A DNA stretch of 63,348 nt. Source: a virus (taxonomy: Duplodnaviria > Caudoviricetes). Both the position numbers and the translations under genes were made by a program. The stretch is from the IMG/VR virus record IMGVR_UViG_3300035688_000005, positions 1-63,348 of that record; one strand, written 5' to 3'. Position 1 is the stretch's first letter. Each line of letters begins with the position of its first letter. Positions 6,082 through 55,683 of this stretch are shown in pieces. Under the pieces are notes generated by a model that saw nothing but the letters and a program-made list of their open reading frames with translations, made no database searches and was not told where the DNA came from.

Positions 6082-6124
6082 TTTAACTACCTTTCGGTTA
6101 TCCTCCGATGTTCTCACCTTAAAT

Positions 6125-6228
6125 CTGGCGGCGACCTTGCCATATCTCTCAGAGTAGTGATTCTCTTACCAGATTCTGACAACCCCTATATCCTTGCGGA
6201 TATAGTCATCGTGGGATTTTTGGTCGCT
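6125..6228 (-). ncRNA. 104-nt BHB-flanked intergenic element (putative excised circular RNA)
   Basis: GGCG-AGA-GCGACC ... GGTCGC-CGCC-AGA: 4-bp central helix with a 3-nt bulge 3' of it on each strand; internal TATATCC-GCAA-GGATATA hairpin. Confidence 0.65.
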
Positions 6229-6234
6229 CTCGCC

Positions 6235-6570
6235 TTATTCTCTTCCTGTTTTTTCTTTTATTAGTCTGTTTGCCTCTTGCTTTGTTACATTTGGCGGATA
6301 CATTATGCCTAGCTTTTGCATAAATTTTATCTGCTTGTCGGTAGCTGCATTTTGAGTCGTTGGTCCTTTCGGTAATGCACTTGTTTCTCCGTTTCCTTTC
6401 ATATCTGCAACTCTCCTATCTTTGTCCGCACTGATGCTCTCTGTTCTTTTGTCTTTTGCTACTTCTGAAATTAAACCTAAAGCTATAGTCTCTCTGTTCT
6501 GAAGATTTCTTTCGGCGAGTTTTTTCATCAATTGCTCGAAAGTATCAATATACCAATTTATGTCCGTAAT
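6235..6570 (-). CDS. hypothetical protein with ATDKQ motif, probable ATT start
   Basis: GGAGGTGAT followed by in-frame ATT ACG GAC (6570); C-terminal ATDKQ..F..KLG...TK.EA..LI. Confidence 0.6.
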   Translation of the reverse strand: MTDINWYIDTFEQLMKKLAERNLQNRETIALGLISEVAKDKRTESISADKDRRVADMKGNGETSALPKGPTTQNAATDKQIKFMQKLGIMYPPNVTKQEANRLIKEKTGRE

Positions 6571-6839
6571 ATCACCTCCTTTTATGAAACAGTTTCCCCA
6601 ATATGTTTCCGCAACCGATACACTCTATTATCTGTATGCACTCTGTTTTTTCGCACAGGTAGGCGAACGTGTCTTTTATCTCCACCCACTTGTTGCAGTT
6701 GCCGCACCAAAACTCTACCTTGTCTATCCCTCTCAATTTACCACCTACAATTCATTCCAAATTTCATCAAGGTAGCAATCAATTGTATACTTTGCGAGTG
6801 CCTTGTGTAAAGCCAATTTAGTTACCTTTTTTACTTCCA

Positions 6840-7598
6840 TTAATTTATCACCCACGTTTTGTTCTCTTTAATCGGAAATTTCTTTAACATCCACTCCATT
6901 CTTTTTTCGAACCTGAGGTTATGTCCTTCGTGTATCTCTGCCAAGTCGTCCAAGAAGTGTAAAGTTTCGTGCAGCAGGGTTTCTTTTACCCCGAGTAAAT
7001 TGCGATTCGGGTCCACGTATATCTCGTGGACCCCTTCTATAAAATGTCTTGTATACGCCCCCTTTTCGAATACGCTCCTTTTTTCAAAAATGAGTTTTGG
7101 CGCTCCTAACCCCCATCTTGACCTGCCCATATTTCCATATTTATCAACATATCTCGCCATACACCCTTTCGGTGCGCTCTGCGAATCCTTTGCCAGACTA
7201 ATCATCCACTCGTTTGCTCTTTTCAGCATAGTCGGTCTTTGTTTTGCTTTGTCTACGAGCTTCCATAGTCGTCTGGTCTCTGGACTTACTCTCAGGATTC
7301 TGCCCCCAGCGTCTCTTACCCTTAAACAATAACTTGCTTTAAAGCTTTCTATTTTTCTTATCGCCCTGGTATGTTTGCACTCTTTACCTGAATAATACTT
7401 CTGCCCCTTTCCCATAGATACATCGCACCGATTACACTTGGGTTCTCGGTCGTCTTTCTTCTTTCTCCAGATAGAACCGTGACAACAGGGACAATACCAG
7501 CTCCTGGTTTTCCGTTTACCATCAGACTCGGCTACGCATACTTCCGTAGCCAAGTCCCCGCAATTCGCCCCGCCGCTTGGGCCTTGATTCGTCTCCAT
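6840..7598 (-). CDS. SprT-like HEXXH zinc metalloprotease with Zn ribbon
   Basis: TLLHETLH...H..F; CPCC..CNRC; start refined to METNQ. Confidence 0.55.
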   Translation of the reverse strand: METNQGPSGGANCGDLATEVCVAESDGKRKTRSWYCPCCHGSIWRKKKDDREPKCNRCDVSMGKGQKYYSGKECKHTRAIRKIESFKASYCLRVRDAGGRILRVSPETRRLWKLVDKAKQRPTMLKRANEWMISLAKDSQSAPKGCMARYVDKYGNMGRSRWGLGAPKLIFEKRSVFEKGAYTRHFIEGVHEIYVDPNRNLLGVKETLLHETLHFLDDLAEIHEGHNLRFEKRMEWMLKKFPIKENKTWVIN

Positions 7599-7856
7599 TA
7601 TTTCTCGACCTTCCTTATCTTTATCTTGCTGCCCCTGCGTTCCGTTACTTCCCACTCGCCCTCTATGTTAGAAATTCTTTCCCCCTTTCTTGGCGGTTTC
7701 CCCGTGGTCGTGTCCCAGACTAGTTCTCTTTCCATTCCATCGCCTCCTCGTTTATCTATCATATCTATCCCGACGGTTATTATTTGTATTTTAGTATATT
7801 TAAACGTTTCTATACTGCAAAATGTATATTCTGGGAAATATATTTCTAAGTTAAAC

Positions 7857-8018
7857 TCACCAGATTTGGGTCTTTCTCGCAATCAGGGTCGGGAATTTTA
7901 GAACGGCCTCCCTTCCGCAGTCTGGGCATCTGTATCCCCACGTCCCGTCTTCAAGAACAAAACTAATCATAGGAATACTACAATTAGGACAAATCAAAGG
8001 TTCGATTTCGGCTTCCAT
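7857..8018 (-). CDS. Zn-ribbon protein (53 aa)
   Basis: Manual: MEAEIEPLICPNCSIPM...YRCPDCG; TTTAAATA promoter upstream. Confidence 0.55.
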   Translation of the reverse strand: MEAEIEPLICPNCSIPMISFVLEDGTWGYRCPDCGREAVLKFPTLIARKTQIW

Positions 8019-8266
8019 ATACTTAATTAGCATACTTTAGATATTTAAATATAATTGTCCAGTTCTTGTTCGGCTATTGTTATCCTATTTCCTTTTAGGA
8101 ATTTTTACAGAATTGAATCTAGCAATATTACTAATTCTACTTAACTCCCTAACGTCCATTCTCTCGAGAGCAGTCTCTCTCATTCTCATAATCTCATTCC
8201 TGGTCACCATAGGCATCACGAAGTTGAACATAGCCAAGAAATAGAACGAGAAAGTATATAAACCTA

Positions 8267-8340
8267 CGCCAGAGAGCAGACTCGAACTGCTGACCTTCTG
8301 ATTAACAGTCAGACGCTCTACCTGACTGAGCTACTCTGGC
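8267..8340 (-). tRNA. tRNA-Asn(GTT)
   Basis: GCCAGAG/CTCTGGC acceptor, G73, anticodon arm TCTGA-CTGTTAA-TCAGA, T-loop TTCGAGT. Confidence 0.93.
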
Positions 8341-8576
8341 CCAGATGTCTTGTAGTAGTTCGGGAACGTCTTGTATTTTTTAATCCTGCCCTCTTTCGCC
8401 AGTCCGTTCAGAATCTTCCTCACCACCTGTGGCGAGGCGATGCCCTTGAAGTCGCTGACATACCAGACGTCATACTTGTCCCCGACTATAATTTTCGTTT
8501 TGATTTTTCTTTCTATCAAATCCTTCCCCCGCTCGAATGGCGCCGTGTTCTCCTGGAGCCGCGTCACTTGTGCCAT
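8331..8576 (-). CDS. winged-helix DNA-binding protein
   Basis: SPQVVRKILNGLAKEGRIKK pattern; stop codon lies inside tRNA-Asn. Confidence 0.55.
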   Translation of the reverse strand: MAQVTRLQENTAPFERGKDLIERKIKTKIIVGDKYDVWYVSDFKGIASPQVVRKILNGLAKEGRIKKYKTFPNYYKTSGPE

Positions 8577-8785
8577 AAGACATACTTCCCAGCCGTCTCG
8601 TATTTTATCTTCCCCTCTTGGTGCATCTTATTAAGAATCCTCTTCACGGTGGCGAAGTGGATTTTGGAGAACATCTCCTTGGCCTGTTTCGTTATCGCTG
8701 CGGTCGTCTGTCGGTCCTCGGTGACCAGGTTCAGGATATATCCCTCCGCCTCCGCCCTATACTCGTATGCCCCCTGCGTTCTAAT
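8564..8785 (-). CDS. winged-helix DNA-binding protein, ATT start (not in ORF track)
   Basis: GGGTGG SD then ATT AGA ACG; IRTQGAYEY...TTAAIT...IHFATVKRILNKMHQEGKIKYETAGKYVLWHK. Confidence 0.65.
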   Translation of the reverse strand: MRTQGAYEYRAEAEGYILNLVTEDRQTTAAITKQAKEMFSKIHFATVKRILNKMHQEGKIKYETAGKYVLWHK

Positions 8786-9039
8786 ACAACCACCCAGCCC
8801 ATTATTTGTATTCCTGTATATTTAAACCTTTTTGCGGGTTACAAATAATATAAGTGTATGTATACGTCCGACAAAAACACTCTTATTATATTTATATAGT
8901 ATTATAACATTATAAATAATATACAATATAATAAATAATAAAGAATATTCTAATTAAATAAAAATTTGAATCGATACGAGAAAAAGAGAATTATTTTTAA
9001 TTGGGGCACAACATACGTTTATATTATTTATGATGTCAC

Positions 9040-9309
9040 TTAACTTCCTTCTTTCTTGCTGTAAATCAGGTTGACCTTAGAGAACTTGGAGTTCAGATAC
9101 TGGGTCATAGCGTCGAGAATGCTGGCTTTAAGTATCTCGTTCTCACCCCTTAGGGCTTCCCCCTCGGTGTTGCATTTGTCAAGGTCTTCTTTTAAGCTGA
9201 GCTTCTCTACGCCGCAGATGTTCCACTTCGTCCTGAGGTCTTCCATCTCCTTGCTCAACTGGCCCATCTCTGGGCAAAGCATCCCCCTTAGCCAATTTAT
9301 AATGTTCAT
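9040..9309 (-). CDS. coiled-coil protein resembling the N-terminus of 10804..11415 (possibly truncated)
   Basis: MNIINWLRGMLCPE vs MFDVLKWLQNLVCPE; both followed by coiled coil with DxC...AL..ENE.LK. Confidence 0.5.
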   Translation of the reverse strand: MNIINWLRGMLCPEMGQLSKEMEDLRTKWNICGVEKLSLKEDLDKCNTEGEALRGENEILKASILDAMTQYLNSKFSKVNLIYSKKEGS

Positions 9310-9377
9310 TCTCTTACCCGAAATACCAGTCTTTTTCTCTTTCTATCCGTTCTATTTCCTGCTCCAGCTTGGACTTT

Positions 9378-9584: not shown

Positions 9585-9843
9585 TTGTTAATTAAATAAA
9601 TACCTTTTATCAAAAAGACCAGGGCAAACATAACTACGACTACATAAACAATCGTGGGAAGTGCTACTGCAATCACTTCTAATATCTTTTCTACTATCAT
9701 TAGACCTACTCCTAAATAAGCATTCATCGTCATCTCTGGGGATTAAAAAACTTATCAAGTTGAACACCAGATTCGGTGGCAGTTCCACATCCCACCACTA
9801 GTAGCTTTAGTAAATCTGCCATATCCGATGACGAACAACCTGT

Positions 9844-10152: not shown

Positions 10153-10758
10153 TTAGTTTTCCTTACATAAATATTTTGGATGACAATCCACACATAAGGT
10201 CTTACCATTTTTGATGCCCCATAGAGAAGCACAATTAATTGCATCCTCAACTGTTTTTATTTTATTTTCTTTTATTATTTTACTGAAAGGTTCTATATGA
10301 TGAGCTTTTAATTCGCCACCATTTTTACCGCATTTTTGACAAGTATAGTTATCCTTCTTAAAAACTTCCTTTCTCCAGTCTCTCATTTGTATAGAATTTC
10401 TGATTAAATGATTTAATTCAGTTATCCCACCTTTCCAGTTAGGGTTGTTTTCCCTCCTTGTTTTATAGTTATGTTTTCCTTTCAAAGGCGATGGTCTCCC
10501 TAAATGTGCTAATCTAATTTTTTCTCTTACTTCATCCGTCACAATATGCCCCTTTACAAAATTCCCTTTTTTGTTGGTATTCCACGGTTTAGGATTATTA
10601 GTTCTATTACCACATTTACTGTGGTCTCTCAATTGCCATATATTGTTTCCAATCATATTTTCAGCCCTCATCTTTCTTAATTCTTTTGCTTTGTTCTCTC
10701 CAAAGATTTCTTCATACGTTTTGCCTTTTCTGAGAGTCCTTTTATCAATTTTTCCCAT
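10153..10758 (-). CDS. HNH homing endonuclease (NUMOD3-type N-terminus)
   Basis: NPNWKGG...WRKEVF.KDNYTCQKCG...AHHI.PF...NGKTLCVDCH. Confidence 0.85.
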   Translation of the reverse strand: MGKIDKRTLRKGKTYEEIFGENKAKELRKMRAENMIGNNIWQLRDHSKCGNRTNNPKPWNTNKKGNFVKGHIVTDEVREKIRLAHLGRPSPLKGKHNYKTRRENNPNWKGGITELNHLIRNSIQMRDWRKEVFKKDNYTCQKCGKNGGELKAHHIEPFSKIIKENKIKTVEDAINCASLWGIKNGKTLCVDCHPKYLCKEN

Positions 10759-23632: not shown

Positions 23633-23634
23633 TT

Positions 23635-24339: not shown

Positions 24340-24401
24340 GCCTTCAGCTTTCGCTAAGACTTGAGGACAGTTATCATCGCACCTCAAACTGCCCTGCCCA
24401 A
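24340..24401 (-). ncRNA. structured leader: relaxed BHB-like stem with K-loop-like loop, plus GNRA hairpin
   Basis: TTGG-GCA-GGGCAGTT ... AACTGTCC-TCAA; loop TGA-GGTG-CGATGA; TTAGC-GAAA-GCTGA. Confidence 0.4.
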
Positions 24402-31887: not shown

Positions 31888-32133
31888 TTACAATCTGAAC
31901 CGTTTTTTATAGTCTTTTAATTTATAATGATGAACTTCCTCTAAATGTTTCTTCATTCTAAATTGTCTTGTCATACACAACTGGCATATTTCCATTATTA
32001 CCGAGCGAGAGTGATACTTATGCCCGTTTTTAAAAACACTTCTGGGCGGTTTATTTTTTAGCGAATCAGAATAAGCTAAAATTCTTTTGTCTGTTTCTTT
32101 TGTTTTTCCTTTGTTCCAGATTTCTCTATCCAT
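31888..32133 (-). pseudogene. homing endonuclease remnant (DNA-binding part only)
   Basis: WNKGKTKETDKRI plus C..C...HL...H finger; no nuclease domain. Confidence 0.5.
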
Positions 32134-32149
32134 ATAATCACTAAAAAAT

Positions 32150-32181
32150 CTAAAATGGCTCTCCCGTGAGAGAGAGCCAAG
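32150..32181 (-). terminator. hairpin and T-run after the major capsid gene
   Basis: TGGCTCTC...GAGAGCCA followed by TTTT. Confidence 0.55.
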
Positions 32182-32193
32182 TTAAAAATTGTT

Positions 32194-33183
32194 TTACGAT
32201 GCTGCCATTTGAACACCGGACACTGCACGGATATTTTGTATTGCGATACCGTATGACTGAAGTGCTATGACTTCAGTGTCTACGCTACCAGGCAATCTTC
32301 CGTCAACAACTTCAACATCTGTCTCTTTCACGAAAGTTCCTGCTTCGTTCGCATCACAAAATATACTGAAACCACTGTCTATTTGAGTGGTCACAATAAC
32401 CTTCTGTGGACCGAAGTATTCTACTCTCGGGAATAGGGTCGTTGCGTTATTTGCAGTTCCAGCCGCAATTGTAACAGTAGCACGGTAGATTGCTTGTTTG
32501 AAATCTGTGTCTTTCAAAAGTGCCGCATAATCATCTGGATGCAGAATCAAATGCGTCGCCTTGAAGAACTGTCCTTCAAGCAGAGCACGTGCATCTATAA
32601 GGTTAGCATAATTAACCCTTGTAGAAGCTCCACCCGTGAATATTCTGTTTCCGTTTGCGTTTGTAACTACGTTCTTCAAACCCTGAACGATGTCAAAGTC
32701 GACTTTACGAGCCAGTGCCTTTCCTGCCCTCTTAGCTTCAGCTACAACCAGCGAAACCATACCCCTCTTTATCATCTCCCAAGTTATCTTGGAAGCTGCT
32801 ATTTTCTTTGTCGGAGTAACAGTCACGAAGTCGTAACCAACGCCAGTATAGGTAACCGTTCCACCTTCTGCTACTTCAGCAGCAGTGATACGGAGTTCCT
32901 TTGGCAATTTGATAGCACCTTTTCCTTGCCCGTGCATTAAGTCTTCGTTCATTTGTAGCAATTCAAGTCCCACCATAACAGGTTCGACTGCCTCTCTTAT
33001 TACTGACGCTAGGACAGTAGTGAAGAGAGCAGATGCGTTCGATAATGTTACGTCTTCTCTGAACGCACCAGGGAAACTTTCAGAAGAGATGATTCCTACT
33101 CGAGCCATCTCCTTAAATATCATTTTCCCTGCGGCTTCTGTTAGAGGGCTTGAAGTTGGTTCACTTAGTTCATAATTTGCCAT
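32194..33183 (-). CDS. major capsid protein (HK97 fold)
   Basis: EVAEGG, VTPTK......ITWEMI, ALARKVD, LILHPDDY..L; 329 aa after scaffold. Confidence 0.9.
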   Translation of the reverse strand: MANYELSEPTSSPLTEAAGKMIFKEMARVGIISSESFPGAFREDVTLSNASALFTTVLASVIREAVEPVMVGLELLQMNEDLMHGQGKGAIKLPKELRITAAEVAEGGTVTYTGVGYDFVTVTPTKKIAASKITWEMIKRGMVSLVVAEAKRAGKALARKVDFDIVQGLKNVVTNANGNRIFTGGASTRVNYANLIDARALLEGQFFKATHLILHPDDYAALLKDTDFKQAIYRATVTIAAGTANNATTLFPRVEYFGPQKVIVTTQIDSGFSIFCDANEAGTFVKETDVEVVDGRLPGSVDTEVIALQSYGIAIQNIRAVSGVQMAAS

Positions 33184-47090: not shown

Positions 47091-47162
47091 TGGAATCGGG
47101 GGGAATCGAACCCCCAGCCTCTCGCTTGCAGGGCGAGCGTTCTGCCGTTGAACTACGAACCC
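47091..47162 (-). tRNA. tRNA-Ala(TGC) with non-canonical C33
   Basis: GGGTTCG/CGATTCC acceptor with G3:U70 and A73; anticodon arm CTCGC-CCTGCAA-GCGAG; T-loop TTCGATT. Confidence 0.8.
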
Positions 47163-47386
47163 TTCTCAAATTCTTTGTGTAATTTCTTGTAATCTTTAGT
47201 CGTTAGACCAGTAGCTACTAGTAGTTTTACCAATTTATCCTTCTTTATGTCTTCTATTACCCATCTAAGAGCTTCTACCCAACCTGTTGCAATAACTGCG
47301 TTTATATGGTGTCCTGTCCTTTCTAACACCTCATATTCCTCTTCTCTTTGCTTAAGCTTCTCCTGAATTTTCTTCTTGCTTTTCAT
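47153..47386 (-). CDS. hypothetical protein
   Basis: ORF track; stop codon lies inside tRNA-Ala. Confidence 0.5.
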   Translation of the reverse strand: MKSKKKIQEKLKQREEEYEVLERTGHHINAVIATGWVEALRWVIEDIKKDKLVKLLVATGLTTKDYKKLHKEFEKGS

Positions 47387-47479
47387 TATCTAACCTCCGT
47401 TTTGCCTGCCCCGTTACAAACAGGGCACTTGTCCCAGCCGTGAAGTTCACATTTACACCAGCCTTTTCCATCACAGTTT

Positions 47480-47698
47480 TTACATCTCTCCTCCATCTTG
47501 CCTCAACTCTCTCATTTTTTGGGCTATCCTCTCGTTTGATTTTTTATGCTCTTCAGGTTCTTCTGCTATGAAATCCTTATCACGTAATCCGTTATGCCAC
47601 TTGTTCCAACAATCCTCGCAGTGCCAAACCATCATACCCATACCTCTCCTCATTCCTTCTGCACAGCACGGACAATCTGGATTTAAAACGAATGCCAT
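47480..47698 (-). CDS. Cys-rich small protein
   Basis: CPCC...HCEDC; degenerate paralog at 50951..51133. Confidence 0.6.
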   Translation of the reverse strand: MAFVLNPDCPCCAEGMRRGMGMMVWHCEDCWNKWHNGLRDKDFIAEEPEEHKKSNERIAQKMRELRQDGGEM

Positions 47699-47867
47699 AA
47701 CATCACTTGTAAAAGATGCAGACGCAGATTCCTCTTGAGCTGTTTTGGTCTATGAACTCTATCTTTTCCACGTTCTCTAACTTAGCTATCACTGGAGCTA
47801 CGTCCTCTTCTATTGCTTTTGCTTTGTTCCTTGTGTTATACTCCACCCATACGCATTTTACTTTCAT

Positions 47868-48266
47868 CTAATTCACCTCCAATTTTTGTTCTAGTTTTTT
47901 TCTTACCTCAATCGGGTTTGCAAGTCCGTTTGACAGTTTTATTGTTTTGCCGATTAGGAAATCAATTATCTTTGGCTTCCCTGCTTTATGGTCTTCTATG
48001 GCCCGCGGGTTATCCTCTAAAACCCTTTTGATTAATGGCTCTATATCAACTTCGGTTTTCTTCCCTTCGGTTAGTTCTTCCATAAAAAGACCTTCTTTAC
48101 CAATCTGTGTCGGGTCTGCTATTGCCCCTATTACTGCCCTTAGGTGCCTCTCCGCCCTCACTTTGGTTATTTTCCCTTCTTCTATCTTTTTCAAGAACCC
48201 TATGAACCATTCCTGAAAGGTAGGAGCATTTATTATTGTATCAAATTTGCCCATACCACCACTCAA
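47868..48266 (-). CDS. protein with GatB/YqeY C-terminal tRNA-binding-like domain
   Basis: VLEDNPRAIEDHKAGKPKIIDFLIGKTIKLSNGLANP..V...L...L. Confidence 0.7.
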   Translation of the reverse strand: MSGGMGKFDTIINAPTFQEWFIGFLKKIEEGKITKVRAERHLRAVIGAIADPTQIGKEGLFMEELTEGKKTEVDIEPLIKRVLEDNPRAIEDHKAGKPKIIDFLIGKTIKLSNGLANPIEVRKKLEQKLEVN

Positions 48267-48475
48267 TCAACAATCTCTGCGAAGCAAAACTTCGGCAAGA
48301 CATTAGTGACTTTGACTTTATACCTTTCCCCCCTCTTTCCGTTGGGGACTATGACAGTATAATTGTTGTATTTGGCTATTCCATCTCCTTTCCTTCCGAC
48401 TCCCTCAATCTCAACCAGAATCTCCTGGTCTTTCTTGATTGGAATCGGCATATCTTCTTCAGTCATATCCATCAC
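48263..48475 (-). CDS. single TRAM-domain RNA-binding protein (archaeal type)
   Basis: PIK..QE..VEIEGVGRKGDGIAK..NYTVIVP....GE..KVKVT.V.PKF.FAE. Confidence 0.9.
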   Translation of the reverse strand: MMDMTEEDMPIPIKKDQEILVEIEGVGRKGDGIAKYNNYTVIVPNGKRGERYKVKVTNVLPKFCFAEIVD

Positions 48476-48819
48476 CTCCTGAATCTTGTGATACCCAAGT
48501 CGCCTATCAGCTCTATCATATTGTGCCTAATCTGCTGCCTTTGGTCCAGTATCTTGAACAGCTCCTCTTTTTTCATCTTGAATTTTATCTGCGGTTCTCC
48601 AGTCAGATTCGGCCTTTCCAAGTCCCAGTCGCCTTTCTCATCCACGACCGTTATCATATCGTTCTTTTGCTTCGTTGCATCGTCTATAATTTTGAAGAAT
48701 TCGGGCATATTGGCCCTGAAGCTTATCTCGCCTGGCTTCAAGTCCTTTAGCTGCGTGTCCATAACGTATCTCTTCTCCTCGAATTCCCTTACGACGTCCC
48801 CTGGCTTCATCCTTCCCAT
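48472..48819 (-). CDS. hypothetical protein
   Basis: ORF track, coupled to terminase stop. Confidence 0.55.
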   Translation of the reverse strand: MGRMKPGDVVREFEEKRYVMDTQLKDLKPGEISFRANMPEFFKIIDDATKQKNDMITVVDEKGDWDLERPNLTGEPQIKFKMKKEELFKILDQRQQIRHNMIELIGDLGITRFRR

Positions 48820-50372
48820 TATGTCTCACCCCTCGGTCTGAATTTGACTCTCGGGTCGGTCGTCACTACCGACGGCTCTTTCATCTCCTTTACCTTATCG
48901 TCTATCGGCTCGGACGAGATTATGGTCTCCCCCCTCAGTGCCTTTAGATACTTCTCCCTTTTTTCATCCATTTCGACTCTCATCTTGCCGAACGCCGCCT
49001 GCGGGATTTGCCTGCTCGCCATAAAGAACAAAGCTAAAGATAAAGAGTCAGAGAAATCATCGTGGGCTTTCGGGGCGTCTGGGTGATGAACCATCAAGTG
49101 CCCCGAACTCGTGTATTTGAACTTCAAGTCGGCGAGTTGCAGGAGCAGTTTCGTGTGGTCCGCTGGGAGTTCCAGCATCAATCCCCTTCTTTGGTATGCC
49201 TCGGAAGTCGTGTTCGAGAGGTTGGCGTCGTTTATCTTCTTGTTCTGCTCCATCAGCCATTTCAGGTTCTTATACATAGCCTCCCTTTTGTTGTCGTCGG
49301 AATTCTCAACCCTCTCGTTGCCCCTTATGGGGACAATCGGGAGCCTCTGCTCCTTCACATATGCGTATACGCCCTCGCCCATCCCAGCGGCGTCAACATA
49401 AATCTGCCTGAAGTTCCAAACCCTATGCAAAGCCTGTATCCTCCCCATAGCGTCGGTCAGCATAGTCTTAGAAGTATGCTCTATGTGCACAACTCTGATT
49501 GGCTCCTTCAAGTAAGAGATGGGGTTCACTTGGACTATCGTATAAACCGATTCGTCTTCGCCTTGAGCCGCCAAGTCTACCCCCAAGTAGTAATCGTATC
49601 CTATTCTGGGCGCGGATAGTTGCTCCACGTCTCTTGCGCTCGCCTGGATTAGGTATCTCGGGATGTATGCGTCGCCCTCCTCCAGGAACTCCCCCTCGAA
49701 CTCCTGCCTGTATTCCGCCTCCGTCAGCTCGTTCCTTTTGGACTGCAGGAAGTCTTTTAGGATTAGCGGGCACTCTTCCGATTTTATCGCGTGCTTCTCC
49801 CACATATCCGAGTTCCAGGCGTCCCAGAACCTTCCTCTCTTTCCGAAAGGGGTAGATAGCAAGAATAGGTCTCCGTTTGTTGCAGCCAGCGCTGGTTCCA
49901 CTGCGGTGAACACCTTGTCTGGGACGAACGCCGCCTCGTCAACTATAATCAGGTTCGCACTGAAGCCCCTTATCGTGTCCCCAGTGTGCCCAGCAGGGAG
50001 CGAGTGTATCTGGCTCCCGTTGTCAAAATACAAGGCGGTCAGTGTCTCCCTGATTAGCGTCGTCTTGAAGCACTTGTCCACCATCTCCCTTATCTTCCAG
50101 AACAGGAGCGAGGACTGCCGCTGTGTCGGCGAGAGGATTAGGATGGTGTATTTATTGTAGAAATACGCCCGATACACGGCTTTGATTGCCACCATCGTCG
50201 ACTTGCCCACCTGCCTTCCTGCTTTGATTATTATTCTTTTTTTCGTGGAGAGCAGGAAGTTCTCCTGGTATCTGAACGGTCTCAGCCCCCCGACCAGATG
50301 CGCGAATACGATGGGGCTCCCCATCTCCCTTATTATGCTCTCCTCCTCAATAGCCCTGGCCTGTTGCTGCAT
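48819..50372 (-). CDS. terL: terminase large subunit
   Basis: Walker A AGRQVGKS, Walker B IIVDEAAF, STP, RNase H-fold LGVDLA, YVD, HDDFSDS. Confidence 0.95.
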   Translation of the reverse strand: MQQQARAIEEESIIREMGSPIVFAHLVGGLRPFRYQENFLLSTKKRIIIKAGRQVGKSTMVAIKAVYRAYFYNKYTILILSPTQRQSSLLFWKIREMVDKCFKTTLIRETLTALYFDNGSQIHSLPAGHTGDTIRGFSANLIIVDEAAFVPDKVFTAVEPALAATNGDLFLLSTPFGKRGRFWDAWNSDMWEKHAIKSEECPLILKDFLQSKRNELTEAEYRQEFEGEFLEEGDAYIPRYLIQASARDVEQLSAPRIGYDYYLGVDLAAQGEDESVYTIVQVNPISYLKEPIRVVHIEHTSKTMLTDAMGRIQALHRVWNFRQIYVDAAGMGEGVYAYVKEQRLPIVPIRGNERVENSDDNKREAMYKNLKWLMEQNKKINDANLSNTTSEAYQRRGLMLELPADHTKLLLQLADLKFKYTSSGHLMVHHPDAPKAHDDFSDSLSLALFFMASRQIPQAAFGKMRVEMDEKREKYLKALRGETIISSEPIDDKVKEMKEPSVVTTDPRVKFRPRGET

Positions 50373-50805
50373 ACTCCTCCGCCTTCTGCTTTCTTACTTC
50401 CTTAATCTTCTGGACCAGGACGTTGTAGGTGACGTCGAAGCTCTGCATACTAATCGGCTGCATCGGGAATATTCCCATCACCTGCATCCTCCTCAGCTTT
50501 TCCTTGTCCTCGTCCCTCAGGGACGAGATGGCCCTTTCCCTTTCCAGCGGGGTGATGTTCCCGTCGACGATTATCTTCCACAGTTCCCTCTTCCTTACTT
50601 CCATATTCTCTTCCAGCTCGGCCACTATCTCGTCTGGGTTCTTAGTCAGCTTGGACGCCCACACCTTCTTCAGCTTGGCCATATCGCTCCTGACGGTCCT
50701 CTCGGTCAGGGATAGGCCCTTGGCTATGCTCGCCACCCTCGCCCCTCTCAGGTATAGCGATTCTATTTTTCCGAGCCTTTCCTGCCTTTCTTCCCACGTC
50801 GCCAT
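50347..50805 (-). CDS. terS: terminase small subunit
   Basis: N-terminal HTH (LYLRG....IA..L......V..D); directly upstream of terL. Confidence 0.7.
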   Translation of the reverse strand: MATWEERQERLGKIESLYLRGARVASIAKGLSLTERTVRSDMAKLKKVWASKLTKNPDEIVAELEENMEVRKRELWKIIVDGNITPLERERAISSLRDEDKEKLRRMQVMGIFPMQPISMQSFDVTYNVLVQKIKEVRKQKAEEYAATGQGY

Positions 50806-50950
50806 ATGAAATTCTCACCTTTCGTTTGTCATTCATAGGTGGATAAATATAAATTTGATTGGAGAAATTGAAAAGTAAATCGACGTATCATATCTATCCT
50901 CCTTATCTATTTAATTAGTTATATTGTCAAGGACTAGTATTTAAGCTTTT

Positions 50951-51133
50951 CTATCCTGGACTTTCCTTGAAATCCTTGACTTTTAGCCCGTTGTGATGCT
51001 TGTTCCACCAGTCCTCGCAGTGCCATCCGTTTTTTCTTATTTCCTCTGCATTCTTGCAGTCCTTGGTCTTCTCCTGGAACATCCGCGTCGCCCTCGGGCG
51101 GCGGGGGCGTTCGGGTTCGAAGACGAACGCCGT
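50951..51133 (-). pseudogene. degenerate paralog of 47480..47698 (ACG in place of ATG)
   Basis: TAFVFEPERPRR...WHCEDWWNKHHNGLKVKDF vs MAFVLNPDCPCC...WHCEDCWNKWHNGLRDKDF. Confidence 0.65.
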
Positions 51134-51137
51134 TTTC

Positions 51138-52115
51138 TCACGCCCCGTCGTATATGGTCTCCCTGATGTGCCTCGCCAGCGCCTCCATAAACTTGGGCAT
51201 CACCGCGTTGCCGAGCATCCCCCACCCGTCCTCGAACTTCATATTCTCTGGGAATCTGAACTCGTCTGGGAACGAGCACAGCCTCTTCAGTTCGGAAATG
51301 GTTATGTTCCTATCCTCCGCCCAGTGAATTATGTTGTTTCCTCCAGCAAAGACCGTTTTTACGACCGTCGGGGACGGTCTGCCGCTGTGGAGCCTGTGGA
51401 ATCCGAACCAGTGCCCCTTCGGGTGGTATTTGCTTGCGTTCTCCCCCATCCTTACTAACTTTAGGTATTTCTTGCAGAGTTCGGTGGAGACTATCCGTTT
51501 CGCCCACTCCATCTCGCCTTCCGTGTTCTTAGTTTCCGCCAGGGCGTCCTTTGCGGTTATCAGGCTTTTTGACGGGGGGGGGAACGACGGTTCGATGCCC
51601 AGGTCGTCCCTGACGCCTATCCAGATGAGCCTTTTCCTCGACTGCGGGACGCCGTAGTTCTTCGCGTTCATCAGCATACATCTTACGCTGTAGCCAGACG
51701 CCTTCATCTCCGTGGTATAGAGCTTGAACAGCCCCTTCATATTCCCCTTGGCCATCCCGCTGACGTTCTCGATGAGGAACGTCCTCGGTCTTATCTCCCT
51801 TATGAGCCTTATGTTCTCAAGCACCAGGTCGTTCCTGCTATCGGTCACTCTTCTCCTGCCAGCCGTTGAGAACCCCTGGCACGGGGGGCTTCCGTCAAGG
51901 TGGTCTATTTTGCCGAATTTTTCCGTTATTTCTTTTCCTGTTACTGTCCGTATGTCGCGCTCCCATATCTCCGTGCCTGGGAAGTTGAGCCTGAACGTAT
52001 CGCAGCACTTCCTGTCGTTGTCTATCGCTAGCAGCTCACCGAATCCAGCCCGCCTATAGCCGAGAGAACTTCCCCCGCAGCCCGCGAAGATGGAGACGAG
52101 AGTTGGTGCTCCCAT
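51138..52115 (-). CDS. DNA (cytosine-5) methyltransferase
   Basis: FAGCGG, GSPPCQGFS, ENV, Q.R.R, R..T..E..RL..FP, GNAV; start refined to MGAPTLV. Confidence 0.95.
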   Translation of the reverse strand: MGAPTLVSIFAGCGGSSLGYRRAGFGELLAIDNDRKCCDTFRLNFPGTEIWERDIRTVTGKEITEKFGKIDHLDGSPPCQGFSTAGRRRVTDSRNDLVLENIRLIREIRPRTFLIENVSGMAKGNMKGLFKLYTTEMKASGYSVRCMLMNAKNYGVPQSRKRLIWIGVRDDLGIEPSFPPPSKSLITAKDALAETKNTEGEMEWAKRIVSTELCKKYLKLVRMGENASKYHPKGHWFGFHRLHSGRPSPTVVKTVFAGGNNIIHWAEDRNITISELKRLCSFPDEFRFPENMKFEDGWGMLGNAVMPKFMEALARHIRETIYDGA

Positions 52116-52447
52116 ATCCTTATCACCTCGTATCCCGAGTCCCTGAGAATCGCCCTGTTCCTGCGGTCGCGCCTCTTGTTCGTAGCTATCTTGTCCCGCC
52201 AGAACTTGGGCAGACCCGACAGCTTCTTCTCGCCTGCCCTGTAGCCGTGCCAGAAGTCGCCGTCTACGAAAATTAGTTTCTTCGGGTAGACCAGGACGTC
52301 TGGATTCCCGAATATTTTGGGGTGCATCCTGTGCCTGACCCTGTTGCCCTTCAGGATGTTGTGGACTGCCCTCTCTGGCTTCGTCCACTTCCCCCTTATC
52401 TTGGACATTATCTCGCTCCTCTTCTCCCTCGTGAATATGTCTGTCAT
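52028..52447 (-). CDS. vsr: very short patch repair endonuclease
   Basis: MTDIF..EKRSEIMSKIR...TKPE...GNPD...FVDGDFWHG...FW..KI..N..RD. Confidence 0.9.
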   Translation of the reverse strand: MTDIFTREKRSEIMSKIRGKWTKPERAVHNILKGNRVRHRMHPKIFGNPDVLVYPKKLIFVDGDFWHGYRAGEKKLSGLPKFWRDKIATNKRRDRRNRAILRDSGYEVIRIWEHQLSSPSSRAAGEVLSAIGGLDSVSC

Positions 52448-52451
52448 CTTT

Positions 52452-52925
52452 TCACCATTCGTATCCGCACTTGGGGCACCTGTTGGCCGTCGGGATGCTC
52501 TCGTCCAGTTCGGTTATGGTCGGCTCCTCCTCCGAGAGTATCTTCTTTATCTCCCACTCGTCGAACCCCGAGATGCTTATGTCCGCCCCGTCCGACCTCG
52601 CTATCTCCGTTATTATCGCCCTCAGCTTCTCCTCGTCCCAGTCGCCCTGAATCCTGTTCAGGGCCAGGTTGAGCAGCTTCTCCTTTTTTTCCGTCAGGTC
52701 AACGAAAACCACTGGCACGTCCTTCATCCCGAGCTCCTGCGCCGCCCTGACCCTCTGGTGCCCGCCGACTATGAAGTTCGCCCTGTCCTTGCTACTGTTC
52801 ACCACGATAGGCTCCACGAAACCGAACTCCCTGATGCTCCGCTTCAGCTTCTCCATCTCAGCCCTCGGCATCTGCCTCGGGTTGTATTCCGCGAACTTGA
52901 GCTCCGATACGGCTATCTTCTCCAT
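52452..52925 (-). CDS. ParB-N/Srx domain protein
   Basis: YNPR...L.RSI.EFGFVEPIVV...IVGGHQRV.AA; C-terminal CPKCG. Confidence 0.85.
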   Translation of the reverse strand: MEKIAVSELKFAEYNPRQMPRAEMEKLKRSIREFGFVEPIVVNSSKDRANFIVGGHQRVRAAQELGMKDVPVVFVDLTEKKEKLLNLALNRIQGDWDEEKLRAIITEIARSDGADISISGFDEWEIKKILSEEEPTITELDESIPTANRCPKCGYEW

Positions 52926-52930
52926 TCAAA

Positions 52931-53332
52931 TCACTTCGGATTTATTTCCCCCAGCACCTTCTCTATGTGCTTGCAGGTCTGCCTGGACTTGTATTCGTCG
53001 CACTGGCAGAAGTTCTGTCCCAGGCCCACTATCACCCTGAACTCTTTTTCCCCCTCGGACACTGCGTATCCGCTTTCTGTTTTTTTGACTACTAGTTCAG
53101 TTGGTTCTTTTTCATTTGGATTTTTTCCCGTCTTCTCTCTCTCTTCGTTAACCTTCTCCCTGATGAACTCCGCGTAGGTCTTGTGGTGCGATATTATCCA
53201 CCTCTTGTCGTCAATCGCAATAGAGCAGGTCAGGGTCGTTTTTTCCTTCCCCATTCGCTTCCTCTTCGGCCTTTCTTCCGCCGCCTCTGGCGCTGGCGAG
53301 GCGCCCAGATTCTGATTGTCCACCCATCTCAC
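52931..53332 (-). CDS. SWIM Zn-finger protein
   Basis: CQC........CKHI. Confidence 0.65.
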   Translation of the reverse strand: MRWVDNQNLGASPAPEAAEERPKRKRMGKEKTTLTCSIAIDDKRWIISHHKTYAEFIREKVNEEREKTGKNPNEKEPTELVVKKTESGYAVSEGEKEFRVIVGLGQNFCQCDEYKSRQTCKHIEKVLGEINPK

Positions 53333-53425
53333 CCCTCTATTTAATTAGTTAGTATTTAGTTTGAAGGGGTATATAAAGATTTATCTTGTGCGGGATATAA
53401 GATTAATTAAATAAGAGCGGTTGAT

Positions 53426-53493
53426 TTGTGGGGGCGCCAGACCCAAAAGGAGGCGATTAGAGAATTCTAATCTATCTTTTGGCCTGATGCCCT
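53426..53493 (-). ncRNA. 68-nt BHB-flanked intergenic stem-loop
   Basis: TAA-GTGG-AGA-GGGCATCAGGC ... GTCTGGCGCCC-CCAC-AAA. Confidence 0.65.
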
Positions 53494-53499
53494 CTCCAC

Positions 53500-53792
53500 T
53501 TAACTTTTAACTTCCTTTTTAAATTCAAACTTTGTTATGAACTCCTCCAAGTTGTCTATGTTCGTCTCGTCGCAGTCCTTTATGCTTACTATCAGTTGTT
53601 GAAAGAGGAATTCCTTTCCGTGCCAAAAGAACAACATCTTTTCGGCTGTTTTCTCGTCCGCTTTCTCTATCAGTTTTAGCACTTCTTCTTTCAGATGTTC
53701 TAGCTGGTCTGCTTCGTCTCCGAACTGGTCTTCCCGTAGTTTCCTGTTATGTGCCTGTCCAACGATTCCTTCATCCGTCTATCCATTTCCAT
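53500..53792 (-). pseudogene. hypothetical protein with apparent 1-nt deletion at 53733-53735
   Basis: MEMDRRMKESLDRHITGNYG continues as EDQFGDEADQ...VLKLIEKA only if GGG is GGGG. Confidence 0.5.
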
Positions 53793-53959
53793 TTTTACTT
53801 ACCTCCTTTTTCCATTAAAGTTTTCTTGCTTGGGTAGATGGTGGTTCTATGTGGTTTTACCCAGATTTTTTTACCATTATGTAATATTCTCCAGTGTCCC
53901 TTTACACATCCTTCAGTTGCACCTGCGGTATTCTCTAATCTTGTTGCGAATGTTCCCAT

Positions 53960-54181
53960 CTATCTTACCTCCTCTATCTGTTCAAGTGTTTTCTTCCAAA
54001 ATGTTATCTCTTTTCTCATCGCCTTTTTATCTACTTGTGCATCTAGGGTAATTGAGTCTGCGTCTTCCAAATCTTCTATCACTTGATTTATCGCTGGCTT
54101 TATGATGTGCTCAATTATCTCTGTGCAGTGGGCATTCGCCAAAACGTCCATAACATTTTCTTTCCAATCTGACATATTCAA
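53960..54181 (-). CDS. hypothetical protein
   Basis: ORF track, GGAGG SD. Confidence 0.5.
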   Translation of the reverse strand: MNMSDWKENVMDVLANAHCTEIIEHIIKPAINQVIEDLEDADSITLDAQVDKKAMRKEITFWKKTLEQIEEVR

Positions 54182-54187
54182 CGCCTC

Positions 54188-54400
54188 CTATTCATCATCC
54201 ATTATCGTATCGTGAATTAGTCCTCTGATTTCTTGGTCTGCCATCTCCCAAATATCCCATAATTCTTCTGGCAGTTTTTCAATTATTTCCTCGTCTATGC
54301 CGACAAAATTCTCTTCGCCCCAAGGAGTAGTCCTTCTTTTAATCGCTTCCTTTGTTGTTTTGATTACCAAGTTTCTGTTTTTCTTTCCTATGCTTCTCAT
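54188..54400 (-). CDS. hypothetical protein
   Basis: ORF track. Confidence 0.5.
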   Translation of the reverse strand: MRSIGKKNRNLVIKTTKEAIKRRTTPWGEENFVGIDEEIIEKLPEELWDIWEMADQEIRGLIHDTIMDDE

Positions 54401-54699
54401 TCTACTCTCCTCCTGCCTGAAAAAGGCAAATTCTTTTTAGGGATTTCCCACGTCTTTGGACTTAAACTTTCTATCTCAGCCTGGCTGAAGTTCCCCCATT
54501 CTTCCTCTAATCCCTGCACGAAGCCGAACCAAATCGTGTCCTCTACCACCTTTCCGTCTATCATACTTCCATTCGGCAGTTTCCTTTCCTCTACCTTTTC
54601 AGTGGCAAACCAGAACCGCCCCGTGAACGATTCGAAACCTTTGATTACTTCGTGCCCGTCTATATGCAATTTCCCGTTTTTTGAACTAAACTCCGCCAT
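54397..54699 (-). CDS. DUF2958-like protein
   Basis: WFATE...WFGFVQGLEEEWGNFS..EIE. Confidence 0.65.
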   Translation of the reverse strand: MAEFSSKNGKLHIDGHEVIKGFESFTGRFWFATEKVEERKLPNGSMIDGKVVEDTIWFGFVQGLEEEWGNFSQAEIESLSPKTWEIPKKNLPFSGRRRVE

Positions 54700-54844
54700 T
54701 TACTCCGCCTCCTTTTTGTAATGATGCCAAAGCTCTATGCTCTCCCTGTGCAAAGGGTCTTTGACATTTCTCAGTTCTCCTAGTCTTTCGTCCGCGAAAA
54801 ACTCTTCCTTCCCTATTTTTATTATTGGCAAAGCCGTTACCATA

Positions 54845-55066
54845 TTAACCTCTCCTTTTTAGTTCATCTCCCGCCTTCTCTTGCAATTCACCAAGCATCT
54901 GTATCATCAGTTTTCTGTCCTCGTCTAATCCGTCTTTGTTGTTTAGAGAGATTGCCAAAAGCAACCTTTCTGCTATCGCTCTTGAAATAAAATCCTTTAA
55001 TTGCTCTTTCGTATATTTTTTAAATGCTCTTTCCAATTTTACCTTATCTTTTTTTGTGAATTCCAT
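54845..55066 (-). CDS. hypothetical protein
   Basis: ORF track. Confidence 0.5.
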   Translation of the reverse strand: MEFTKKDKVKLERAFKKYTKEQLKDFISRAIAERLLLAISLNNKDGLDEDRKLMIQMLGELQEKAGDELKRRG

Positions 55067-55294
55067 TACTCATACGCCTCGTTGTGTCTTGGCTCTATGT
55101 CTACATCGTCCTCTATTTCCACTTCTTGTATATGCCCGCACTTCTTGCAGGTCACTTCTCCTTGAACTCTTACAACTACCATCTTCATCTCCTCCCGTCT
55201 TTTTTATGTTTCGGTATATAGTGTTCTGCGTCCAACCTATGCGTCTTGCATTTGGCTATCTCGCTAAACTTTACTACTCTTATTTTTGCCATCC

Positions 55295-55609
55295 TTAATA
55301 CACCCTCTTTATCCATTCCGCTCTTCCTATGAAACCTTTCTTGCAGTTGCAGCTTATCAATTGTCCCCTGCACTTCGGGCATCTTTCCATGTCGCAACCG
55401 AAGTGGTGTAGATTTCCTTTCTTGTTCACAATACCGCAGTCGTGACATCTCTCGTTTACATCGAAGTATTCCGTGTTTCTTGCGTAAGCTTTTTTGTTGA
55501 TTTGTATTAGGTTAAAGTCTTCACTGCAACTTTCGGTTTTTTTGTTTGTCATCTCTTTCCTGCAATCACCACATTCTGCCATCTTCTCAACCTCCTTTTT
55601 TATAATCAT
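55295..55609 (-). CDS. Cys-rich Zn-binding protein
   Basis: RCHDCG.....HHFGCDMERCPKC.GQLISC.C; real start probably MAECG. Confidence 0.65.
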   Translation of the reverse strand: MIIKKEVEKMAECGDCRKEMTNKKTESCSEDFNLIQINKKAYARNTEYFDVNERCHDCGIVNKKGNLHHFGCDMERCPKCRGQLISCNCKKGFIGRAEWIKRVY

Positions 55610-55613
55610 AAGT

Positions 55614-55638
55614 CGGGTGGCTGGGGTTTCCCCCAGCT
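55614..55638 (-). ncRNA. 25-nt BHB-flanked GNRA hairpin
   Basis: AG-GGTG-AGA-GCTGGGG-GAAA-CCCCAGC-CACC-CGA-CT. Confidence 0.65.
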
Positions 55639-55683
55639 CTCACCCTGCGGTTTTAATTGTCCCGCAAACAATCATACCCGATT

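What the first reader, a model, noticed from the sequence alone, without database searches (positions are those of the whole stretch)
6121..55647. Genome-wide set of BHB motifs: virus may use the host splicing endonuclease as an RNA-processing system
Seen: besides the portal intron, canonical BHB geometry occurs in intergenic gaps at 6125-6228, 53426-53493 and 55614-55638, and in relaxed form at 24358-24401. All are on the transcribed strand; the four canonical ones have 5' bulge AGA and a 3' bulge ending in A, with different but compensating central helices (GGCG/CGCC, GTGG/CCAC, GGTG/CACC, GGTT/GACC). Two begin immediately after a TAA stop. Conserved structure with divergent sequence argues for selection. 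Inference: these sites release small circular RNAs and/or cut polycistronic mRNA, comparable to RNase III sites in phage T7 early mRNA. My scan was by eye, so more sites, including in-frame ones, may exist.
Basis: partly seen in the sequence, partly recalled or inferred. Interest (0 to 1): 0.85.

Follow-up and report, generated by a model that had tools for sequence, protein, structure and literature searches.

The report
tRNA-type splice motifs between viral genes
A tailed virus of archaea has one convincing tRNA-type intron in its portal gene and four similar RNA hairpins between genes, which the host's tRNA-splicing enzyme may also cut, but only one of the four has the textbook shape and no RNA data exist.

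Summary
The window is an uncultured tailed archaeal virus record (about 71% complete), with genes on the minus strand. The three "canonical" sites exist at the stated coordinates. They are the three most structured non-tRNA spacers of 45 (z -3.5 to -4.7). Only their 5' half is BHB-like: a 4-bp helix, an AGA bulge and a long inner helix. The outer helix is 2 bp or mismatched, and the full BHB fold costs 3.1-6.8 kcal/mol over the MFE, so they are relaxed HBh'-type, not canonical. The 24.3-kb site is rejected. The portal intron is strongly supported: removing 32 nt restores the N-terminus that relatives have uninterrupted. Generic BHB geometry is no commoner than control geometries, and one canonical hit sits inside an intact vsr gene. 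No RNA runs or close relatives were available. A distant relative carries intron-bearing tRNA genes, and another has a canonical BHB-bounded 107-nt spacer element. Best reading: non-coding tRNA-type introns in untranslated mRNA, not RNase III-like sites. The scan has noted similar intergenic BHB elements in other archaeal viruses.

The parts
38874..38922 (-). Portal-gene BHB intron (reference case): H GGTT/GACC, bulges AGA/GAA, 10-bp inner helix. The outer helix is 4 G-C pairs after one T.T mismatch. 32 nt excised (38911-38880).
   Evidence: z -4.01, 0 of 200; +1.6 kcal/mol over MFE; spliced frame matches the N-termini of relatives.
9765..9833 (-). New: textbook hBHBh' in a spacer. Outer helix 5 bp (2 G.U), H TCGG/CCGA, bulges ATA/ATC, inner helix 6 bp, 52 nt between cuts (9822-9771). 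A further 7-bp outer stem follows, then a T6 run at about 9745-9750.
   Evidence: the BHB is the MFE; z -3.39, 0 of 200; 0 kcal/mol penalty; only full BHB on either strand; 1 BHB in 7 shuffled genomes.
6122..6236 (-). S1: HBh'-type element directly after a TAA stop and directly upstream of a NUMOD3 homing-endonuclease gene. H GGCG/CGCC, bulges AGA/AGA, inner helix 6 bp closing two hairpins, 104 nt between cuts (6228-6125). The outer helix in BHB register is only AA/TT.
   Evidence: z -3.87; +5.6 kcal/mol.
53420..53504 (-). S2: long stem-loop directly after a TAA stop at the end of a gene block. H GTGG/CCAC, bulges AGA/AAA, inner helix with one A.C mismatch and one extra G, 68 nt between cuts (53493-53426). 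The outer helix has 4 of 5 pairs.
   Evidence: z -3.91; +3.1 kcal/mol.
55611..55646 (-). S3: 25-nt mini element (55638-55614) between two genes. H GGTG/CACC (can extend to 5 bp), bulges AGA/CGA, 7-bp stem with GAAA loop. The outer helix is 2 bp.
   Evidence: z -4.07; best of 45 gaps; +6.8 kcal/mol.
24358..24401 (-). It is an ordinary 9-bp hairpin with no bulge geometry.
   Evidence: z -0.94; 36 of 200 shuffles fold as well.
52250..52303 (-). False-positive control: canonical BHB geometry (h 5, H 4, h' 6; 37 nt) inside the intact, conserved-looking vsr endonuclease reading frame.
   Evidence: z -1.68; the outer helix is not in the MFE.
5359..6117 (-). Homing-endonuclease gene (NUMOD3; paralog family of 5) abutting S1.
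39001..39627 (-). Vsr-like endonuclease gene abutting the portal start and intron.
   Evidence: translation; note.
10153..10758 (-). HNH-type endonuclease gene (paralog family of 6), one gene upstream of the 9.8-kb BHB. HNH is read from the CxxC...HH motifs by eye.

Best explanation
The window is most of the genome of a tailed virus of an archaeon. All of its messages are read from the minus strand. Besides one tRNA-type (bulge-helix-bulge) intron that must be removed to make the portal protein, the untranslated spacers hold four ORF-less elements of the same kind. One is a textbook hBHBh' (9765-9833). Three (S1-S3) keep the portal intron's 5' half (a G-rich 4-bp helix, an AGA bulge and a long inner helix) but have only a rudimentary outer helix (HBh' type). 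I read them as non-coding members or relics of the virus's population of tRNA-type introns. On this reading the host splicing endonuclease (EndA) cuts in the two bulges and the host ligase (RtcB) rejoins the message. That leaves an mRNA lacking the hairpin and small RNA circles of 25, 52, 68 and 104 nt. They behave as introns in untranslated mRNA, probably selfish or neutral and possibly tuning the downstream gene, and not as RNase III-like sites that separate cistrons. Shown here: the structures, their stability, their strand and position, the shared AGA half motif, and the need to splice the portal gene. Inferred: that EndA cuts any spacer element, that the ends are ligated, and any function.
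For: (1) Portal intron. Removing 32 nt at the BHB joins two frames, and the codon formed across the joint gives Asp, as in 'LDPHEEM' of the two closest relatives P0002 and P0003. Of the 12 relatives whose N-termini I inspected (11 of the 13 aligned in A1, plus the L019 portal), 12 of 12 have the uninterrupted N-terminus. (2) No EndA or RtcB gene in this record or in relative G001, so host enzymes are needed. (3) S3, S1 and S2 are the three most structured non-tRNA spacers of 45. Each folds with the 4-5-bp helix plus 3-nt bulge in the MFE. (4) S1 and S3 are the two strongest hits of an unbiased half-motif scan of the whole strand. Zero of 60 shuffles give two such hits. (5) The AGA bulge is shared with the portal intron: 3 AGA half motifs in spacers against 0.33 expected, 0 of 200 shuffles, with S2 as a fourth that has one mismatch. 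(6) The 9.8-kb site is a full BHB in the MFE and the only one on either strand. There was 1 in 7 shuffled genomes and none in G001 or L019. (7) The portal intron itself has a mismatch next to its 3' bulge. The tRNA-Arg intron of relative G001 has almost no inner helix. This suggests a host enzyme that tolerates relaxed motifs. (8) Relative L019/L013 has a canonical BHB-bounded 107-nt spacer element overlapping a stop codon (z -3.86). (9) Precedent: the 46-nt BHB intron in the 5' UTR of HVO_1309, cut in vitro and found as a circle (PMC7714728, passages read). (10) Three of the five elements lie next to or one gene from a homing-endonuclease gene.
Against: No RNA evidence of any kind exists. The canonical conformer of S1-S3 is 3.1-6.8 kcal/mol worse than the MFE, and their outer helices are 2 bp or mismatched. 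Homotetrameric and homodimeric EndA types are described as needing the strict motif (PMC4090602, passages read), and the host and its enzyme type are unknown. Generic BHB geometry is not enriched over control geometries or shuffles. The MFE-level half motif is not enriched either (22 minus, 12 plus; mirror form 16 and 19). A canonical BHB occurs by chance inside the intact vsr gene. With any bulge triplet allowed, 25 of 200 shuffles reach 3 copies. The 9.8-kb stem is followed by a T6 run and S2 sits at the end of a gene block, so both could be 3'-end or terminator hairpins. The complete relative G001 has no spacer BHB in the MFE scan or among its most structured gaps. No homologues of any element were found, so there is no covariation test.
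Confidence: 0.5

Rival explanations
1. S1-S3, and perhaps the 9.8-kb stem, are ordinary stem-loops of untranslated mRNA that EndA never cuts. They could protect 3' ends, act in termination or serve as regulatory hairpins. The AGA bulge could then be a binding site for some other protein, or a coincidence.
For: The BHB conformers of S1-S3 are not the MFE. Other strong spacer hairpins have no bulge at all: 56413-56478, 57112-57277, and 32122-32205, which has a T-run after the capsid gene. The 9.8-kb stem precedes a T6 run, and S2 ends a gene block. Half-motif geometry is not enriched in MFE structures.
Against: It does not explain why three of the four best non-tRNA spacer hairpins share a 3-nt AGA bulge 4-5 bp above the base, as the portal intron does. 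None of the sites matches the hairpin-plus-T-tail scan. No K-turn G.A pairs follow the bulge (read by eye).
Confidence: 0.3
2. One reading: a dedicated processing system in which EndA cuts polycistronic mRNA into separate messages, like RNase III sites in T7 early mRNA.
For: The elements lie between cistrons on the transcribed strand, and two begin at a stop codon. The virus already depends on EndA.
Against: Known EndA products are religated: circular pre-rRNA, and the spliced HVO_1309 leader (PMC7714728 passages; PMC12558985 passages). There are only 4 spacer sites among 45 gaps of 40 nt or more. S2 is at a 3' end, not between co-transcribed genes. No conservation in G001.
Confidence: 0.1
3. 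The matches are chance: stable GC-rich hairpins that happen to resemble half a BHB.
For: There are hundreds of loose hits on both strands. A canonical hit lies inside vsr. One full BHB appeared in 7 shuffled genomes. The AGA criterion was chosen after seeing the data.
Against: z-scores of -3.4 to -4.7 with 0-1 of 200 shuffles folding as well. The sites are confined to the 9% of the strand that is non-coding. Zero of 60 shuffles give two hits as strong as S1 and S3.
Confidence: 0.1

Closest known systems
BHB intron in the 5' UTR of Haloferax volcanii HVO_1309 mRNA (Schwarz et al. 2020, PMC7714728; abstract and passages read)
   Same: A BHB-bounded element in an untranslated part of an mRNA. It is excised by EndA and found as a small circle, is 46 nt long (within the 25-104 nt range here), and has no coding role.
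   Different: It is cellular, not viral, and a single case. It was shown by circRNA-seq and in vitro cleavage. Here there are several elements in one virus, in intercistronic or 3' positions, mostly relaxed in shape, and nothing has been shown experimentally.
BHB intron in cbf5 pre-mRNA of Crenarchaeota (Watanabe 2002, as cited in PMC7714728; Yokobori 2009, PMC2738675, abstract read)
   Same: A tRNA-type intron in a protein-coding message, spliced by EndA. It is the direct analogue of the portal intron in this window.
   Different: It lies in a cellular gene. The spacer elements here interrupt no reading frame.
Relaxed hBH / HBh' splice motifs of non-canonical tRNA introns (Marck and Grosjean 2003, and Tocchini-Valentini 2005, as cited in PMC4090602; passages read)
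   Same: S1-S3 have one well-formed bulge flanked by two helices, while the other splice site lies in weakly paired sequence.
   Different: Those motifs sit in pre-tRNAs of archaea with heterotetrameric or three-unit EndA. Here the host enzyme is unknown and the RNAs are mRNA spacers.
BHB processing stems of archaeal rRNA operons, giving circular pre-rRNAs (PMC7714728 and PMC12558985, passages read)
   Same: A long helix with a BHB encloses a structured RNA that is released as a circle. S1 (104 nt) and the L019 element (107 nt) have this layout.
   Different: The enclosed RNA here matches no known family and is about 100 nt, not an rRNA.
RNase III sites in phage T7 early mRNA
   Same: Structured intercistronic elements recognised by a host endoribonuclease.
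   Different: RNase III cutting leaves separate messages. EndA products are normally religated. The enzyme, chemistry and recognition are all different.

Membership tests
Canonical archaeal hBHBh' motif (EndA substrate) | Central helix of exactly 4 bp | tested here: met
   Met at all five sites. In S3 the helix can extend to 5 bp, and in the portal MFE it shifts to a 6-bp register.
Canonical archaeal hBHBh' motif (EndA substrate) | Two 3-nt bulges on opposite strands, each 3' of its strand of the central helix | tested here: inconclusive
   The 5' bulge is in the MFE at all five sites. The 3' bulge is in the MFE only at 9.8 kb and, shifted by 1 nt, in the portal. Forming it at S1, S2 and S3 costs +5.6, +3.1 and +6.8 kcal/mol.
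Canonical archaeal hBHBh' motif (EndA substrate) | Flanking helices h and h' of at least 2-3 bp on both sides | tested here: not met
   h' is 6-10 bp everywhere. h is 5 bp at 9.8 kb, 4 bp after a mismatch in the portal, 4 of 5 pairs at S2, and only 2 bp at S1 and S3. The feature is met at 9.8 kb, borderline in the portal and S2, and not met at S1 and S3.
Canonical archaeal hBHBh' motif (EndA substrate) | Cleavage by EndA after the second bulge nucleotide, then ligation | not testable with these tools
   No RNA holder was listed. For the portal only, the predicted cut positions give an in-frame joint that matches relatives.
Relaxed HBh' motif | [quoted passage not shown] | tested here: met
   S1, S2 and S3. 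Definition taken from PMC4090602 (passages read).
Relaxed HBh' motif | A host with a broad-specificity EndA (heterotetramer or three-unit type) | not testable with these tools
   The host is unknown. No provirus was found in genome contigs and the Atlas gave only viral taxa.
Box C/D sRNA (for S1) | C (RUGAUGA) and D (CUGA) boxes brought together by a terminal stem as a K-turn | tested here: not met
   No snoRNA/sRNA family matched at E up to 5. The C-like word has a C where U is required and is paired in the MFE.
Intrinsic terminator (hairpin plus T-run) | A G+C-rich stem followed within 0-2 nt by a T-rich tail | tested here: not met
   None of the four spacer sites was listed. The 9.8-kb stem does have a T6 run after its extended outer helix, which the scan's loop limit would miss.
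Mobile BHB intron with its own homing endonuclease | The endonuclease ORF is enclosed by the BHB | tested here: not met
   No convincing BHB encloses any of the 12 endonuclease ORFs. The elements are ORF-less and the endonucleases are free-standing.

The most novel reading that the evidence does not exclude
An archaeal tailed virus seeds the untranslated spacers of its polycistronic messages with tRNA-type introns. The host EndA/RtcB pair excises them, so infection produces a set of virus-encoded circular RNAs of 25-104 nt. The 104-nt, two-hairpin S1 RNA would be a functional non-coding RNA. Splicing would also remodel the message just upstream of particular genes, for example the homing endonuclease after S1. 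Together with the portal intron, this would make the host tRNA-splicing machinery a general step of viral gene expression.
Probability: 0.25. Interest if true: 0.8.

Novelty: new variant of a known kind. Interest (0 to 1): 0.55.

Why it matters
EndA-dependent splicing outside tRNA and rRNA is documented for very few archaeal messages: cbf5, and the HVO_1309 leader (PMC7714728). My five literature searches found no paper describing BHB elements in viral mRNAs. The library lacks most subscription journals, and supplements were closed. If the spacer elements are cut, archaeal viruses would be a rich natural source of BHB introns and small circular RNAs. Viral gene expression would then hinge on a host tRNA enzyme. 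The range of shapes here, from strict to relaxed, would report on the substrate range of the unknown host's EndA. If they are not cut, the result is a useful warning. BHB geometry alone is common by chance, as shown by the hit inside the intact vsr gene.

Tried and rejected
RNA evidence: no RNA holder was listed for the window. Laying the contigs of the two DNA runs on 37500-57000 gave no variants or joints at the portal intron, S2 or S3.

Close relatives:
- The portal and TerL proteins used singly found nothing in viral contigs.
- The portal alignment found only relatives at 34-56% identity. In genome contigs it found only a weak Mu-F hit in a bacterium.
- blastn of all five elements and the L019 element against every fetched locus gave only 11-16-nt chance words.
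- An exact search for S3 gave 0 hits. The 17-mer from the 9.8-kb site gave 3 unrelated chance hits.

Known RNA families: only the three tRNAs matched, even at E up to 5.

The 9-mer shared by S1 and the hairpin at 57149-57157 is not enriched (11 matches vs 6.5+-2.5).

BHBs enclosing endonuclease ORFs: none convincing.

A scan for further in-frame introns that would fuse adjacent ORFs gave 62 hits, as expected from dense gene junctions. Only the portal hit stands out, and the others were not followed up.

The canonical hit in the methylase/vsr region was rejected as lying inside an intact vsr frame. BHB hits inside the continuous L019 portal ORF were rejected as chance. The L005 hit around tRNA-Pro was judged an acceptor-stem artefact.

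Folding the spacers of the complete relative G001, and an MFE scan of G001 and L019, showed no spacer BHB. The 130-nt window of that scan cannot hold elements over about 100 nt, so it misses S1 and the L019 element.

Supplements of papers were closed and may hold lists of BHB substrates that I could not see.

Full report
WHAT THE WINDOW IS. The window is a whole IMG/VR virus record of 63,348 bases, estimated 71% complete. Almost all reading frames lie on the minus strand: 112 called genes cover 91% of it. It encodes a large terminase, a portal fused to a Mu-F domain, and a C5 methylase. It also encodes an HK97-type capsid protein, ParB- and Cas4-like proteins and three intron-less tRNAs. The nearest named terminase belongs to Halogranum tailed virus 1, at 33% identity. 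The record encodes neither EndA nor RtcB.

THE PORTAL INTRON IS THE ANCHOR. On the minus strand the portal start (frame 39038-38898) runs into a stop, and the rest of the gene (38883-37123) is in another frame. Between them lies H GGTT/GACC with bulges AGA and GAA, a 10-bp inner helix, and an outer helix of four G-C pairs after one T.T mismatch. It folds with z -4.01. Cutting after the second nucleotide of each bulge removes 32 nt. This rule follows from tRNA numbering: the first two anticodon bases lie in the central helix, according to passages of PMC4090602. The joint is in frame. The codon formed across it encodes Asp, the residue that precedes PHEEM in the two closest relatives, P0002 and P0003. 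Of the 12 relatives whose N-termini I inspected (11 of the 13 aligned, plus the L019 portal), 12 of 12 have this N-terminus uninterrupted. The virus therefore needs an archaeal splicing endonuclease and ligase, and these must come from the host.

S1 and S2 begin directly after TAA stops. Each folds in the MFE with the lower helix, a 3-nt AGA bulge and a long inner helix. The z-scores are -3.87, -3.91 and -4.07, with 0, 1 and 0 of 200 dinucleotide shuffles folding as well. Among 45 spacers of 40 nt or more, they rank 2nd, 4th and 1st for structure. The others in the top nine are three plain hairpins, a tRNA, the portal intron and the 9.8-kb site.

The second half of the motif is weak. In BHB register the outer helix is AA/TT in S1, 4 of 5 pairs in S2, and 2 bp in S3. 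Forcing the full BHB costs +5.6, +3.1 and +6.8 kcal/mol over the MFE, compared with +1.6 for the portal intron. The sites are therefore HBh'-type, not canonical. The 24358-24401 site is an unremarkable hairpin (z -0.94) and I drop it.

At 9765-9833, 12 nt after the stop of ORF 10137-9844, lies a textbook hBHBh'. It has a 5-bp outer helix (two G.U pairs), H TCGG/CCGA, bulges ATA and ATC, a 6-bp inner helix, and 52 nt between the cuts. This structure is the MFE (z -3.39, 0 of 200). I folded 130-nt windows every 30 nt across both strands. In that scan it is the only full BHB. There are none on the plus strand, and none with mirror geometry on either strand. Seven shuffled genomes gave one BHB and no mirror form. 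G001 and L019 gave none. The site is thus unlikely to be chance, at roughly 1 in 10-20 per genome before its spacer position is taken into account, although seven shuffles is a thin control. One caveat: its extended stem is followed by a T6 run, so it could also act as a terminator hairpin.

IS THERE A GENOME-WIDE SET BEYOND CHANCE?
- Not by generic geometry. A loose descriptor hits 2,466 places on the minus strand and 1,724 on the plus strand.
- With h of at least 3, h' of at least 5 and at most 2 G.U pairs, the 4/3/3 geometry gives 18 minus and 9 plus hits. The other 4-bp geometries give 10-19.
- Canonical hits number 5 against 2.9+-1.5 in 60 block shuffles, and 8 of the 60 reach that count.
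- A hit of full canonical quality lies inside the intact vsr frame at 52250-52303.
- Strong hits stand out. With at most 1 G.U pair and at least 6 G-C pairs there are 8, against 2.2+-1.8 in shuffles (0 of 60). The two best, with no G.U and 9 G-C pairs, are S1 and S3.
- In the spacers, AGA-bulged half motifs number 3 against 0.33 expected (0 of 200). With any triplet allowed, 25 of 200 shuffles reach 3.
- The half motif defined at MFE level is not enriched: 22 minus and 12 plus, with the mirror form at 16 and 19.
The case therefore rests on five individual sites, not on a statistical excess of BHBs.

RELATIVES. Portal relatives are distant, at 34-56% identity. G001 is a complete 79-kb relative. 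It has 18 tRNA genes, three of them with inserts of about 37-60 nt in the anticodon loop. Its tRNA-Arg(TCT) shows an hBH motif with bulges TAT and AGA and almost no inner helix. For the other two I found no BHB with my criteria. G001 has no spacer BHB.

L019 and L013 carry identical sequence from two records. They hold a 107-nt spacer element closed by a perfect hBHBh' (5/4/7 bp) that overlaps the upstream stop codon (z -3.86). That hit came from a post hoc scan of about 130 kb. None of the elements has a sequence homologue in any fetched locus, so covariation cannot be tested. No RNA run holds the virus.

MECHANISM AND RIVALS. Three of the four best non-tRNA spacer hairpins share the exact 5' half of an intron that must be spliced. 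The parsimonious reading is that the same enzyme recognises them. The portal intron's own mismatch beside the 3' bulge, and the relaxed tRNA-Arg intron in G001, hint at a tolerant host EndA.

The products of EndA plus RtcB are a rejoined RNA and a circle, as shown for the HVO_1309 leader and for pre-rRNAs (PMC7714728 and PMC12558985, passages read). These would therefore be introns of untranslated mRNA, not cistron separators.

Earlier notes of this scan on other archaeal viruses describe both BHB mini-introns that travel with homing-endonuclease genes and intergenic BHB elements. I did not test those notes. Here S1 abuts a NUMOD3 endonuclease gene. The portal intron abuts a Vsr-like endonuclease gene. 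The 9.8-kb site is one gene away from an HNH-type gene. By my own rough estimate, 3 of 5 sites lying that close has a chance of about 2%. No BHB encloses an endonuclease ORF.

The main rival is that S1-S3 are plain stabilising or regulatory hairpins. I give this 0.3, because the full motif is thermodynamically disfavoured and nothing shows cleavage.

VERDICT. The finding is a new variant of a known kind, with the HVO_1309 leader intron and the relaxed tRNA motifs as the closest precedents. It is of moderate interest until RNA data exist.

Noticed in passing
window 52028-52447 (-) and 51138-52388 (-): A vsr-type very-short-patch endonuclease gene overlaps the 5' part of the C5 cytosine methylase frame, a dcm/vsr-like pair on a virus. 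vsr is named from its sequence motifs by eye; the methylase is named from Pfam.
   Followed up: partly
window 48000-57000: A block of higher G+C (0.47-0.51 against 0.33-0.41 elsewhere) holds the terminase, methylase, ParB-like gene, S2 and S3.
   Followed up: no
window 41298-43289 (-) and 32194-33183 (-): A 663-aa protein shares similarity with the 329-aa HK97-type capsid protein. This could be a second capsid-like gene or a fusion.
   Followed up: no
window, 11 genes listed: There are two paralog families of free-standing endonuclease-like genes. One has 6 members (60778, 58826, 25097, 15480, 14211, 10758). The other has 5 members (44334, 41242, 32133, 12750, 6117), and its 81-aa member looks like a fragment.
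   Followed up: partly
window 32134-32193 (-): A perfect 10-bp hairpin followed by a T-rich tail lies right after the capsid gene. It looks like a terminator and has no bulge.
   Followed up: no
window 57149-57157 and 6226-6234 (-): The same 9-mer, followed by a similar GACCAA word, occurs in S1 and in a simple GAGA-loop hairpin at 57.1 kb. The 9-mer is not enriched overall.
   Followed up: partly
L005 4209-4319, 4325-4432, 5518-5649 (= G001 54302-54412, 54418-54525, 55611-55742): A complete 79-kb relative with terminal repeats carries 18 tRNA genes. Three have long inserts in the anticodon loop, that is, virus-encoded intron-bearing tRNAs.
   Followed up: partly
L019 and L013 2567-2690 (+): A 107-nt structured spacer RNA is closed by a perfect hBHBh' that overlaps the upstream stop codon.
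   Followed up: partly
protein P0002 (closest portal relative, 59% identity, 901 aa): It carries an intein-splicing Pfam domain (PF14890) in its portal. So relatives interrupt the same gene by protein splicing, where this virus uses RNA splicing.
   Followed up: no
window 2233-2309 (-): The viral tRNA-Met starts with an A1:U72 pair, as archaeal and eukaryotic initiators do, but lacks the three G-C pairs in the anticodon stem (read by eye).
   Followed up: no
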